Of a DNA stretch of 64,000 bases, positions 1-3,404 are shown in pieces; within the stretch, counting starts at the first letter, position 1; every line of letters begins with the position of its first letter. This DNA is from Microcoleaceae cyanobacterium. GTDB lineage: Bacteria; Cyanobacteriota; Cyanobacteriia; Cyanobacteriales; Microcoleaceae. The stretch is taken from assembly GCA_051652765.1 (NCBI GenBank), contig JBOFUV010000097.1:32001-96000 (forward strand), read 5' to 3'. Both the position numbers and the translations under genes were made by a program. Under the pieces are notes generated by a model that worked only from the letters and a program-made list of their open reading frames with translations, ran no database searches and was not told where the DNA came from.

Positions 1-3000
1 AACTCTGCCTCCACTGAATCAACGGTGATTGCTGGACTGAGAGGTTCATCCAAGTGACTATGGCCAACCCCAGGACACTGCCCCGCAAACAGTAACCATT
101 GCTCAAACACCAGAAATCGTCCATCGTTAGGTTCGACCACTTGATAGACTCGAATCCGTTTTTGTTGCTGCCGTTCACACCGCAGGATTTGTAACCCATA
201 GCCTACTTTATTCAACAATCGCCGCACAATTGTGATCGGACTTGAATTTTTAGCCAAGCCTATCCCTAGAACAGATTTAGTGGCAGGGCGATCGCGTAGG
301 GCCAGAGCAGCCAGATGTTGGAGATCGGGGTCAGTATTGCGTAATTCGCGTTCGGGATTTTGGAGCAGCGTTGGGACTCCCAGCAACTCCATTGTGCCGA
401 TCAAAGCCCCAAATTGGGAGCGATTGAAGTCAGGCGTAAAAATATGCCCATCTCCCTGTTCTAGTAATCGTCGTGCCATCAGTGCATCTCGACCCTTCAA
501 ATACGCCCGACCCATGGTGAGAAAATAGTGAATTCGGAGCTGGTCATACCAATCCTGATCATCCTTGACCACTAGGTCAGGGGTGACTAAAATGCCATAG
601 CGGGATTTCAATTCATATTTGCGCTGCGATCGCCGTTCCACCGGGGTCTTGATCAATTGTTTTTGCAGGGTGTAATACTGATAACCACTTAAATCCGGCG
701 CAATCACAATCGCCCGACATTCAGTCTGGTAGTTTTGATCCCGCACGGCGGTCACCATTTCAGCGAGAGTTGGACGAACGGATGGCTTGGTTTGGGATAG
801 ATGACTCGCAACTTCTGGTTTTTGGAGGGCATCTGGGATCACCTCTAGAATTTGATGTCCCTCTGCTGCCAACCCAGATAGAACCGACTCTCGATAACGA
901 CCCATGGCCGCATTAAACCGGACTGCCATCTTTGCCCAGCACCGCAGCGATTCTGCCTGGAAACCTAGTTCCAAATCATCCAGAGCCTCAAAGTCAGATT
1001 GCTGCAACAGCCGAATATTCAGTTGGGTTAATCGATGGCCACACCCGAGTAAGTTTGGCATTGAGGTTGAGCCATTGCCAATAGCATTCAACCCCTTGGG
1101 CGCAACCCAGAGGTAACGGGGGATATTTTCCCGAATTCGTCCTAGGGCTTGACGTACGCTGTTTTCAGCTTGAATCCCTTGGGCAATGCCCCACACCGAA
1201 GTGAAGTGTCCTCGGACATCAATACTTACCCCCGTTTCAACACAGGGAGAAGCCAAAACGATGTCATAATCAGGCAGGATTTGATTTAACTGTTTGATGC
1301 AATCGTAGGCCGGATGGGTTGGGTCAGCCAGGGATTCTGAGTCAATTCGTAGAATTTTTTTTTCCGGGAATTGCGTTTTGAGGTAGGTTTCTAAGGTGCA
1401 GGTGCCCCACTTGCTAGCAATTTTCTGAGCAGAGAGACAAACAAATGGTTTTCCCCCCGCTAGAATATGGTGCTCTAAGTCATTAACGAGCTGTTTGGGG
1501 GCTTTGCCAGAGTAAGGATAGATTGACCAAGCGTCCTCCTGGCCAGGTTTCCAAGTATTTTCTAGAATGAACGGAGCCTGTTCGACTCCCGCTAGGGTTA
1601 ACAAATAATCCAAGGACACATCGCTCAAGTCAGCGTCCGCGACAATGACTTGACCCTGACCCTGACCTCCGAGGGTCTGCTGTAACAGGCTCTTCAGCGA
1701 TTTGAGAATTGCTACCCGCTGACTGCGGCAGGTTTCCCCGTTGAGCCCATGCCAGAGCACCTGTTCAACTTCGTCAATAATCACCAACGCATCTGCCCAG
1801 TTGTCGGGGTTGAAACTGACTCTGGACTCAGGGTGGAGGGAATCAATACAAATGCCATAACCATTGGCTGCCAACTCCTCTGGACTTCTTGTTGCTGGGA
1901 GTTGAGATGGATCGGATGCATCAGCCTCTGATCGGTGATCTCGATAGCTTTTCAAGCCAAGCCGTTGGCAAAGGGCTTCAACCAAACGAACCCGATGACT
2001 GATGACTAACACCCGTTGTCCCTGGCAAATTGCCTGCTGTACCCATTGTTCTAACAGTTGGGTTTTACCTGTACCCTTGGGAGATTTAATCCCTACCAAT
2101 CGGGAGGATACGGGCCGTTCTAGAGCACTTAAGTACCGTTGGTTGACCTGAAGACTGGCGGAGTAGGTCAAACGGTTGAAGGATAAGGCTCGCCAGGTCT
2201 CTAAGGGCAAGGCATTTTCGTAGGCATGGGTAAACGCTTCTGGCCCGTGGTTGGCAATTAGATCATCGACTCCTTTTCCCAAGGTCGGATGCCAGGTGAC
2301 AACGTTCACATCACAGCCTTGAGCGTTGAGCAAGTAGCCCAGTTGTAGAATGGCTGCATCTACAGCCTTAACGGTTTGGAGCTTGGGATCTTGGTCAAAG
2401 ACGATGTAAACCTTGCGGTTCGATACGGCCAGTTTCTGTAGCTGAGGAATCAGGCGAGATTTGCCCATCCGGTTGCCCCAGGAGTCTTTGGGAACTCGAT
2501 ACCCGCTATTAACTCCCGGCAAAGCGATCGCTGCATATCCTGCAGTCAGTAATGCGCCTGCTTTCTTCGCGCCCTCAGTAATGCACAGGGGCACTTCGGG
2601 ATGGTTGACGACCCAGTCCCAGAATCCTAAATCTGGACAGTGGGACTGAACCTGTTGAGTGACCAAAGGCAACTTGTACCGTTGGGCAATTTGTTGCCAA
2701 ATCGGTTCAGTCACCTTCAGGGCAAAGACTCCCGTTGAGGCTTGGGGGGGATGTTCGTACTTGATTACCTTTTGGCGATCTGGATCGAGACGAGGATGCG
2801 TAGGCTTGAAACAGCCCCAGGGATCTTCGGCTCCGGTCAGGACATCTACCCCAGAACACCACCAACCCCCGTCAAAGACGTGCTGATAGCGAGTCAGCAC
2901 TGAACTCGAGATGCGGCCATCATTGCGGCGGGGCAAGGTGTTCGCATACAACAAATAATTTAACGGGCGATCGCCTTCGAGAGCAGTAACATTGAGAAGG

Positions 3001-3050
3001 GTGAGCTGCTGATCAACGCAGCTCGCATTCCATTCGATAAGGTGATTCAT
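1..3050 (-). CDS. CyRepA1-family replication protein (DUF3854/TOPRIM-like primase domain fused to SF2-like origin-binding helicase), 3' end outside window
   Basis: Not in ORF track. Manual translation from ATG at 3050: MNHLIEWNASCVD..GGWWCSGVD..WGCFKP..KYEHP..CITEGAKKAGALL..VFDQD..KGVDD..SPKGTGKT (Walker A, ~2061-2084)..IIDEVEQV (Walker B, ~1760-1781)..SPCVETGVSID..QALGRIR..RVYQ..DGR..VFEQW. Frame spot-checked as consistent at 3050, 2063, 1775, 1220 and 5. Confidence 0.9.
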   Translation of the reverse strand, partial: MNHLIEWNASCVDQQLTLLNVTALEGDRPLNYLLYANTLPRRNDGRISSSVLTRYQHVFDGGWWCSGVDVLTGAEDPWGCFKPTHPRLDPDRQKVIKYEHPPQASTGVFALKVTEPIWQQIAQRYKLPLVTQQVQSHCPDLGFWDWVVNHPEVPLCITEGAKKAGALLTAGYAAIALPGVNSGYRVPKDSWGNRMGKSRLIPQLQKLAVSNRKVYIVFDQDPKLQTVKAVDAAILQLGYLLNAQGCDVNVVTWHPTLGKGVDDLIANHGPEAFTHAYENALPLETWRALSFNRLTYSASLQVNQRYLSALERPVSSRLVGIKSPKGTGKTQLLEQWVQQAICQGQRVLVISHRVRLVEALCQRLGLKSYRDHRSEADASDPSQLPATRSPEELAANGYGICIDSLHPESRVSFNPDNWADALVIIDEVEQVLWHGLNGETCRSQRVAILKSLKSLLQQTLGGQGQGQVIVADADLSDVSLDYLLTLAGVEQAPFILENTWKPGQEDAWSIYPYSGKAPKQLVNDLEHHILAGGKPFVCLSAQKIASKWGTCTLETYLKTQFPEKKILRIDSESLADPTHPAYDCIKQLNQILPDYDIVLASPCVETGVSIDVRGHFTSVWGIAQGIQAENSVRQALGRIRENIPRYLWVAPKGLNAIGNGSTSMPNLLGCGHRLTQLNIRLLQQSDFEALDDLELGFQAESLRCWAKMAVRFNAAMGRYRESVLSGLAAEGHQILEVIPDALQKPEVASHLSQTKPSVRPTLAEMVTAVRDQNYQTECRAIVIAPDLSGYQYYTLQKQLIKTPVERRSQRKYELKSRYGILVTPDLVVKDDQDWYDQLRIHYFLTMGRAYLKGRDALMARRLLEQGDGHIFTPDFNRSQFGALIGTMELLGVPTLLQNPERELRNTDPDLQHLAALALRDRPATKSVLGIGLAKNSSPITIVRRLLNKVGYGLQILRCERQQQKRIRVYQVVEPNDGRFLVFEQWLLFAGQCPGVGHSHLDEPLSPAITVDSVEAE

Positions 3051-3053
3051 AAT

Positions 3054-3142
3054 TCTCCAGATTTAGTGTGCTGGACTTTTAGGATACACCATATCTAGTG
3101 GTAGTAGTGTCAAATGACAAACTTTAACACTGTATCTAGTGT
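3054..3142. promoter_or_regulatory. three NrdR-box-like 16-bp imperfect palindromes
   Basis: TCTCCAGATTTAGTGT (3054-3069), ACACCATATCTAGTGG (3086-3101), ACACTGTATCTAGTGT (3127-3142). They resemble the NrdR consensus acaCwAtATaTwGtgt; start-to-start spacing is 32 and 41 bp. Confidence 0.7.
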
Positions 3143-3195
3143 GTTGATTTTAGATACAATATTTATTCGGATTAAGCTCCTCGGTATGAATTTCC

Positions 3196-3263
3196 TGGGG
3201 ACGTTAGCTTTTTAGTCTTCAAGCTGCCTTCCGACGCTGTAGCTTGGAACTAAAGTGACCCCA
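3196..3263 (+). other. long imperfect RNA hairpin, possible ncRNA or leader structure
   Basis: TGGGG..GTTA..TTTAGT.TTCAAGCTGC pairs with GTAGCTTGGA.ACTAAA..TGAC.CCCA; several G-U pairs favour the + strand. Confidence 0.4.
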
Positions 3264-3404
3264 CATTCAGTCCTTCTTAGCGGCAGGGAGATATGAAATG
3301 CTGTTCTTCCATACTTCCTAAAAGTACAGAGCGCTTTATGATGTAGACAGCAAAATGGCACGTCAATGTCTGTACTTGCACAACAATTTTTGGAGGAGAG
3401 TCAG

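What the first reader, a model, noticed from the sequence alone, without database searches (positions are those of the whole stretch)
3054..3142. Three helically phased NrdR-box-like sites over the start of the CyRepA1 gene: possible dNTP-gated replication initiator
Seen: TCTCCAGATTTAGTGT (3054), ACACCATATCTAGTGG (3086) and ACACTGTATCTAGTGT (3127), spaced 32 and 41 bp; the first lies 3 bp from the ATG and covers the RBS region. Known: NrdR is the ATP-cone, ATP/dATP-sensing repressor of ribonucleotide reductase genes and binds tandem 16-bp acaCwAtATaTwGtgt boxes separated by whole helical turns (about 31-32 or 41-42 bp). Inference: this primase-helicase is co-regulated with RNR, coupling a non-DnaA initiator to nucleotide pools. 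This is my best candidate for an undescribed system in the window. Alternative: the repeats are iterons bound by the Rep protein itself.
Basis: partly seen in the sequence, partly recalled or inferred. Interest (0 to 1): 0.85.

Follow-up and report, generated by a model that had tools for sequence, protein, structure and literature searches.

The report
NrdR-controlled domesticated plasmid replication gene
Three sites matching the binding sequence of the nucleotide-sensing repressor NrdR sit over the start of a chromosome-resident, plasmid-type primase-helicase gene and recur before its relatives in many cyanobacteria, so the gene is likely switched together with the enzyme that makes DNA building blocks and likely helps start or restart chromosome copying.

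Summary
The three sites are there as described. A matrix trained only on other genomes' nrdA promoters ranks 3054+3086 the best phased pair in this 5-Mb genome, above its own nrdA operator; nrdR is present. The gene is a 1024-aa CyRepA1-family Toprim/origin-binding-type helicase with intact motifs, in a chromosome-resident clade. Boxes precede 45 of 49 clade genes, nearly always 31-32 or 40-42 bp apart. They precede 0 of 23 more distant paralogues and 0 of 26 chromosomal copies of a separate lineage in an nrdR-less family. Iterons are very unlikely. NrdR control is about 90% likely but unproven by binding or expression data; Synechocystis slr0554 and nrdA read counts do not co-vary. The 'non-DnaA initiator' step is weaker. 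This genome keeps dnaA, 5 of 9 dnaA-less genomes lack such a gene, a sister species has it broken, and no origin-like element flanks it. In its favour, three dnaA-less genomes keep it with boxes, and the fold resembles origin-binding proteins. I found no paper reporting this link; the 2005 NrdR survey and RegPrecise could not be checked. This scan noted the same link earlier on other DNA. New variant of a known regulon; interest 0.62.

The parts
1..3050 (-). Chromosomal CyRepA1-family primase-helicase gene, 1024 aa (last 8 codons lie just outside the window; G000:C97:31976-35050); only copy in the genome
   Evidence: (NF042913 541 bits, cut-off 200); dN 0.18 vs dS about 2.2 (near saturation) against G001
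2235..2624 (-). DUF3854 Toprim-like domain (aa 143-272) with E159 and D219-x-D221 intact
   Evidence: weak profile match to a solved DNA primase, E 0.031
192..2105 (-). Superfamily-2 helicase part (aa 316-953): Walker A at 323, Walker B at 424, motif VI at 634; closest solved fold is HSV-1 origin-binding protein
   Evidence: pLDDT 88.9; E 2.5e-13, TM 0.33-0.40
3054..3069 (.). NrdR-type box, gene-proximal; covers the Shine-Dalgarno-like GGAGA; this extra proximal box is shared by all three genomes of the genus
   Evidence: 17.2 bits; L004 and L210
3081..3086 (-). Candidate -10 hexamer TATCCT abutting the middle box (predicted; start site not mapped)
   Evidence: TAnnnT within 0-2 nt of the box end in 18 of 40 orthologues vs 9% background; not reported by the promoter scan
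3086..3101 (.). NrdR-type box, middle; 32 bp from the first, 41 bp from the third
   Evidence: 16.1 bits
3127..3142 (.). NrdR-type box, distal; A6G deviation, probably weaker
   Evidence: 14.0 bits; effect of A6G in PMC13584703 Table 3

Best explanation
The three phased 16-bp sites match NrdR boxes and likely form a NrdR operator that would repress an intact, chromosome-resident CyRepA1-type primase-helicase gene in step with ribonucleotide reductase, and the protein likely serves as an accessory factor that unwinds and primes DNA to start or restart chromosomal forks. Shown: the sites, their rank, their conservation and phasing in one chromosomal clade, their absence from other CyRepA1 lineages, and intact enzyme motifs. 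From established NrdR biochemistry: a dATP+ATP-loaded tetramer bridges two boxes three or four helical turns apart and blocks transcription, while ATP-only NrdR cannot bind. Inferred: the middle box sits just upstream of the -10 hexamer and pairs with either the distal box (41 bp) or the 5'-UTR box (32 bp). The gene would therefore be off when DNA synthesis halts and dATP builds up, and on when ATP is high and dNTPs are being consumed. An ancestral plasmid Rep was domesticated once in this order and acquired the host operator. It is dispensable in some lineages, so it probably supplements other routes of fork establishment rather than replacing DnaA.
For: Top pair of the genome by an nrdA-trained matrix; nrdR present. 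Box of 10 bits or more before 45 of 49 clade genes (42 of 46; 3 of 3); phased pair in 42 of 49; shuffles give 33 of 920 boxes and 1 of 920 pairs. With spacing left free (16-70 nt), the best partner falls at 31-32 or 40-42 bp in 41 of 42 loci, the windows in which NrdR binds in vitro (PMC12051234). 0 of 23 paralogues and 0 of 26 copies in family f7, where nrdR was found in 0 of 26 genomes. All 29 clade-bearing genomes among 201 have nrdR. The clade split has support 1.0. In 4 of 92 loci the gene lies head-to-head with nrdA, each with its own boxes. A published guide RNA against Synechocystis slr0554 contains a 16-mer identical to an 18.4-bit box of L067. Catalytic motifs are kept in the 44 full-length clade proteins aligned. 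The plasmid relative Slr7037 is required for autonomous pSYSA replication (PMC9978351).
Against: No binding, mutant or induction data. slr0554 and nrdA (slr1164) start-site reads over 10 conditions do not co-vary (rho 0.09). 4 of 49 clade genes (L007, L008, L009, L012) lack boxes although their genomes have nrdR. One plasmid gene (L204) has a single 12.9-bit box at -91. L211 has two strong boxes 29 bp apart. The f7 control is confounded, being a different lineage of the protein, and no clade gene was found in an nrdR-less genome to test directly. Kin are not independent. The replication role rests on homology only; the gene is broken in G002 and was not found in many relatives, e.g. all 8 genus-g5 genomes.
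Confidence: 0.65

Rival explanations
1. NrdR-controlled, but the protein is the dedicated DnaA-independent initiator of the chromosome, binding its own origin(s) as a plasmid Rep does.
For: Fold closest to origin-binding proteins. The three models with dispensable dnaA each list one chromosomal CyRepA (slr0554, SYNPCC7002_A0214, alr3925) and DnaA-dependent S. elongatus lists none; UCYN-A and two diatom endosymbionts keep one (PMC10899382 supplement; PMC7198777). An integrated plasmid origin rescued S. elongatus dnaA deletion. Three dnaA-less genomes (G031, G222, G228) keep the clade gene with boxes.
Against: dnaA-less Cyanobacterium aponinum and Geminocystis NIES-3708 list no chromosomal CyRepA; 5 of 9 dnaA-less genomes of the order show neither type. 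The PCC 7002 origin maps near dnaA (A0001), about 200 locus numbers from A0214, and Synechocystis fires from many sites. No conserved flanking motif besides the boxes and no conserved neighbours. Broken in G002.
Confidence: 0.2
2. NrdR-controlled, but the protein works in DNA repair or recombination, or in trans on plasmids and integrated elements, not in normal chromosome replication.
For: sbcC also carries a box pair here and in 8 of 30 loci; patchy loss; superfamily-2 helicases often act in repair (own knowledge).
Against: Strains lacking slr7037 could not keep pSYSA free although slr0554 was present; retention in very small symbiont genomes; fused primase domain intact.
Confidence: 0.1
3. 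The repeats are iterons or an autoregulatory operator bound by the Rep protein itself.
For: Plasmid Reps commonly bind phased repeats next to their gene (own knowledge); the motif tracks one clade of the protein.
Against: The same motif lies at nrdA in genomes where no clade gene was found (L042/G006, L045/G027, L053/G034); it is the published NrdR consensus; it is absent before slr7037, a working Rep (L205, maximum 7.0 bits), and before 23 paralogues.
Confidence: 0.03
4. The boxes are chance matches or control the divergent methyltransferase gene at 3366.
For: The boxes are palindromic and lie in a shared 315-bp spacer.
Against: Expected number of such pairs 0.002; across orthologues the boxes stay within about 130 nt of the CyRepA1 start while upstream neighbours change.
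Confidence: 0.02

Closest known systems
NrdR operators of ribonucleotide reductase promoters (PMC13584703, PMC12051234)
   Same: 16-bp partial palindrome with C4/A6/A8/T9/T11/G13, AT-rich core (6 of 8 here), pairs at three or four helical turns, placed over promoter or 5' leader; three-box promoters exist (S. pneumoniae nrdHEF).
   Different: The target is a primase-helicase, not an RNR gene. The 41-42 bp spacing, called atypical in PMC12051234, is the rule in this order at nrdA too (12 of 17). Binding not tested for cyanobacterial NrdR.
CyRepA1 (Slr7037) of Synechocystis plasmid pSYSA, NCBIfam NF042913 (PMC9978351, PMC10079941, PMC10899382)
   Same: DUF3854 Toprim plus DEXD helicase architecture, far above the family cut-off, about 39% identity.
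   Different: Chromosomal, single copy, in a separate well-supported clade among housekeeping genes; upstream control is a NrdR-type operator, whereas pSYSA uses the ssr7036/asRNA1 RNA pair and has no box; no adjacent origin evident. Chromosomal homologues were listed in 80 of 145 genomes with function left open.
Herpesvirus and giant-virus origin-binding proteins (HSV-1 OBP, PDB 9hgi/9hgj)
   Same: Best sequence-profile and fold match for the helicase part.
   Different: 12-14% identity, TM 0.33-0.40; this protein adds an N-terminal Toprim domain; origin binding untested.
NrdR boxes before non-RNR replication genes in other bacteria (Rodionov and Gelfand 2005; recalled, paper not held)
   Same: A regulon extension to DNA replication genes.
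   Different: Recalled cases (such as dnaA, topA, ligA) were sporadic; here the link spans many families of an order and targets a domesticated plasmid Rep. Whether that survey or RegPrecise lists slr0554 could not be checked.

Membership tests
NrdR operator | 16-bp box with conserved C4, A6, A8, T9, T11, G13 | tested here: met
   6/6, 6/6, 5/6; 14.0-17.2 bits
NrdR operator | Two boxes an integer number of helical turns apart (spacers 14-17 or 24-27 bp) | tested here: met
   Spacers 16 and 25 bp; 41 of 42 orthologues at 31-32 or 40-42 bp start to start
NrdR operator | nrdR in the genome and the same motif at its RNR promoter | tested here: met
NrdR operator | Overlap with the RNA polymerase site or start region | tested here: inconclusive
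   Start site unmapped here; -10-like hexamer abuts the box in 18 of 40; slr0554 has a 43-nt leader and a box in its guide-RNA target
NrdR operator | dATP/ATP-dependent NrdR binding and derepression in an nrdR mutant | not testable with these tools
   Needs EMSA/MST and a mutant; published read counts show no co-variation with nrdA
CyRepA1 protein family (NF042913) | Score above curated cut-off; DUF3854 plus DEXD helicase with intact motifs | tested here: met
CyRepA1 plasmid replicon (pSYSA type) | Located on a plasmid or mobile element | tested here: not met
   122.8-kb contig with housekeeping-type neighbours; orthologues on multi-megabase contigs; best plasmid match 51.8% among 248 records
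CyRepA1 plasmid replicon (pSYSA type) | Adjacent origin or sense/antisense RNA control region supporting autonomous replication | tested here: inconclusive
   No conserved flanking motif other than the boxes; RNAs and replication activity not testable
Iteron-type origin | Direct repeats specific to the Rep gene and kept in replicating relatives | tested here: not met
   Palindromic, shared with nrdA, absent before slr7037 and 23 paralogues

The most novel reading that the evidence does not exclude
This domesticated, NrdR-gated primase-helicase is the missing DnaA-independent initiator of many cyanobacterial chromosomes and dnaA-less diatom symbionts, so the ATP:dATP ratio directly licenses origin firing together with dNTP synthesis, as part of a wider NrdR replication regulon that also holds sbcC and an unknown 203-aa protein.
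Probability: 0.2. Interest if true: 0.88.

Novelty: new variant of a known kind. Interest (0 to 1): 0.62.

Why it matters
How Synechocystis, PCC 7002 and dnaA-less cyanobacteria start chromosome replication is open (PMC7198777). A conserved NrdR operator marks a gene of unknown function (slr0554 type) as part of the host's DNA-synthesis programme rather than plasmid debris. It also gives a simple handle (nrdR deletion, box mutation, single and double knockouts) to test whether a domesticated plasmid Rep establishes forks under nucleotide control. It widens NrdR from an RNR-specific repressor to a replication regulator in a major cyanobacterial order.

Tried and rejected
RNA runs: no RNA holder listed. 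The promoter scan found no sigma-70 match at the boxes; a TTGACA at 3113-3108 is 21 nt from the candidate -10, too far. Single-sequence fold unusable (pLDDT 37.5); the alignment-based model was used. The genome-collection scan confirmed only 2 named loci among 38 candidate stretches; they repeat the upstream sequences of L005/L006 and were dropped from counts. CRISPRi fitness for slr0554 and A0214 not seen: the PMC10615215 supplement is cut and showed only guide names, the PMC11962424 files held no A0214 row, and absence from the PMC7125299 essential-gene table is uninformative; unseen supplements may hold decisive fitness data. The box pair beside the DUF2811 gene was rejected as a conserved regulon site (no pair in 30 relatives). 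slr1780, recalled as nrdR, is ycf54 by the listings; dropped. A support value of 0.268 was a label shift from re-rooting; the unrooted tree gives 1.0. Rodionov and Gelfand 2005 not held. The ESM Atlas gave only unnamed cyanobacterial clusters for the 203-aa protein. No complex prediction was run.

Full report
OBSERVATION. The three 16-mers are at 3054, 3086 and 3127 as written, 32 and 41 bp apart, and the first ends 3 nt from the ATG of a minus-strand gene at 3050. PMC13584703 (parts 1-2 of 4 read) defines the NrdR box by C4, A6, A8, T9, T11 and G13. The sites meet 6, 6 and 5 of these; the miss is A6G, which lowered affinity 4- to 10-fold when placed in both boxes of a test site. The genome has nrdR and nrdAB with a box pair 41 bp apart. 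I built a symmetrised matrix from all 27 six-of-six matches within 260 nt of nrdA in 16 loci of other genomes; the own locus, one duplicate and three loci without a 5' end were left out. The window's sites score 17.2, 16.1 and 14.0 bits. Among phased pairs in 5.04 Mb, 3054+3086 ranks first (33.3 bits), ahead of the nrdA operator (31.6), and 3086+3127 follows (30.1); 0.002 such pairs are expected by chance.

THE GENE. It encodes 1024 aa, is the only copy, and scores 541 bits on NCBIfam CyRepA1 (cut-off 200) with a DUF3854 Toprim-like domain at 143-272. Toprim acidic residues, Walker A/B and helicase motifs are kept in the 44 full-length clade proteins aligned, apart from rare single substitutions; dN is 0.18 against a near-saturated dS of about 2.2 versus G001. 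An alignment-based model (pLDDT 88.9) matches HSV-1 origin-binding protein best among solved structures (E 2.5e-13, TM 0.33-0.40; profile E 7.5e-11) and origin-binding or helicase-primase proteins among viral models. Relatives fall into three groups: (a) a one-per-genome clade at 53-75% identity, several on multi-megabase contigs, split from all others with support 1.0; (b) a separate long-branch group, one copy in each of 26 genomes of family f7; (c) scattered paralogues and plasmid genes (248 plasmid records, best 51.8%). The two named genome records returned are Limnoraphis at 67-68%.

CONSERVATION AND CONTROLS. Within 300 nt upstream, 42 of 46 clade loci (own included) have a box of at least 10 bits and 40 of 46 a phased pair; shuffles give 33 of 920 and 1 of 920. 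Three further loci all have boxes, two phased and one pair 29 bp apart: totals 45 and 42 of 49. With spacing left free, the best partner lies at 31-32 or 40-42 bp in 41 of 42, matching the two spacer windows measured in vitro (PMC12051234, passages). Group (b) has 0 of 26, and nrdR was found in 0 of 26 of those genomes. Group (c) has 0 of 23; one of these had a poorly placed start and one only 102 nt upstream. Of 8 named plasmid genes fetched (8 of 248 records; one with only 12 nt upstream), none has two sites of 8 bits at a phased distance; L204 has a lone 12.9-bit box at -91, L203 a 10.7-bit site at -411, and slr7037 has none. All 29 clade-bearing genomes of the 201 sampled have nrdR. In 4 of 92 loci, probably one event, the gene is head-to-head with nrdA and each has its own boxes. 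Against: L007, L008, L009 and L012 lack boxes although nrdR is present; for three of these genomes the nrdA operator is intact, so the loss is gene-specific. The f7 control is confounded by lineage, and kin are not independent. The three-box layout is shared by the three genomes of this genus.

MODEL STRAIN. The supplement of PMC10899382 (rows and part 5 of 9 seen) lists slr0554 as the chromosomal CyRepA of Synechocystis PCC 6803. A fragment of it printed in the PMC7125299 supplement is, by eye, 30 of 54 residues identical to the window's protein, and the guide RNA slr0554|24 contains a 16-mer identical to the 18.4-bit box of L067. slr0554 is transcribed with a 43-nt leader and is lowest in darkness (PMC4195498 supplement rows; file 1 not searched). 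If guide numbers count from that start site (methods passage; my inference), the box lies in the leader. Its read counts do not follow nrdA over 10 conditions (rho 0.09), so co-regulation is not evident in the only expression data seen.

MECHANISM. dATP+ATP-loaded NrdR binds two boxes and represses when DNA synthesis halts; ATP-loaded NrdR does not bind. Here the middle box abuts a candidate -10 (TATCCT, 3086-3081; such a hexamer follows the box in 18 of 40 orthologues against 9% background) and can pair with either neighbour, the proximal box adding a block over the leader. The gene would be on when ATP is high and dNTPs are being used, like RNR. Iterons are unlikely: the motif stands at nrdA in genomes where no clade gene was found and is absent before the one Rep proven to work. 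On function, Slr7037 is needed for free pSYSA replication (PMC9978351, passages; PMC10079941, passages), and an integrated plasmid origin can replace oriC in S. elongatus (PMC7198777, passages). The three strains with dispensable dnaA list a chromosomal CyRepA, S. elongatus does not, and UCYN-A and two diatom symbionts keep one; which lineage alr3925 belongs to was not tested. But G000 has dnaA beside dnaN, and 26 of 29 clade-bearing genomes keep dnaA. Of 9 dnaA-less genomes in the order, 3 have the clade gene, 1 the f7 type and 5 neither. dnaA-less C. aponinum and Geminocystis NIES-3708 list none, the PCC 7002 origin maps near dnaA rather than at A0214 (distance inferred from locus numbers), G002 has a broken copy, and no origin-like element or neighbour is conserved. 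I therefore favour an accessory fork-establishing role, starting or restarting in trans, over a dedicated origin-bound initiator.

WIDER REGULON. The next-ranked pairs in G000 precede an unknown 203-aa gene (pairs 41-42 bp apart in the 10 closest of 19 loci, own included, two of them weak), sbcC (pairs in 8 of 30) and a DUF2811 gene (not conserved).

NOVELTY. Searches for NrdR with cyanobacteria, CyRepA1, slr0554, A0214/alr3925/Tery_1066, RegPrecise, primase and Synechocystis (listings) showed no paper linking the two. slr0554 appears only as an unknown protein (single passages); passages of a cyanobacterial network preprint and of the NrdR preprint do not mention it. Rodionov and Gelfand 2005 was not held; I recall that it lists boxes before some replication genes in other bacteria, and the RegPrecise web entries could not be seen, so a prior computational listing is possible. 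Earlier notes of this scan, read after my analysis, describe the same clade and, in one case, the NrdR link on other DNA; they are not independent support. Verdict: real and conserved NrdR-type operator (about 0.9), replication-accessory role likely, dedicated initiator about 0.2; new variant of a known kind; interest 0.62.

Noticed in passing
L116:1858-2466 (G000:C70:9354-9965, minus): 203-aa protein with no Pfam family above cut-off; NrdR-type box pairs 41-42 bp apart in the 10 closest of 19 loci. Likely a second unknown member of the regulon.
   Followed up: partly
L117 (G000:C36:37646-40940): sbcC/Rad50 gene with a box pair 33 bp apart; pairs at 32-33 bp in 8 of 30 loci and one lone strong box.
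   Followed up: partly
L118 (G000:C71:about 3050-3300): Array of DnaA-box-like 9-mers (consensus recalled) spaced 21-22 bp upstream of a DUF2811 gene; densest cluster in G000 and present in 29 of 30 relatives' loci (the other lacks upstream DNA), on a different contig from dnaA-dnaN. Looks like oriC or a DnaA titration site.
   Followed up: partly
L119 (G000:C34:217477): Near-perfect single box (19.3 bits) before a 270-aa unknown gene; boxes of 14 bits or more in all 3 genomes of the genus, none in 4 of genus g6.
   Followed up: partly
L120 (G000:C30:616): Single 17.5-bit box 34 nt before a C5 DNA methyltransferase gene.
   Followed up: no
L076-L095: Family f7 holds a second, independently domesticated chromosomal CyRepA1 lineage with DxE in place of the Toprim DxD and its own upstream motif (ACAATACA in 18 of 20).
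   Followed up: partly
L029 and L210 (G002:C140): The orthologue in a sister species is split by frameshifts and stops, yet all three boxes are intact; recent decay or assembly error.
   Followed up: partly
L066, L071-L073: Clade gene and nrdA transcribed head-to-head across about 450-550 bp, each with its own boxes.
   Followed up: yes
genome sample: nrdR not found in families f7 (0 of 26), f2 (0 of 3) and f36 (0 of 90).
   Followed up: no
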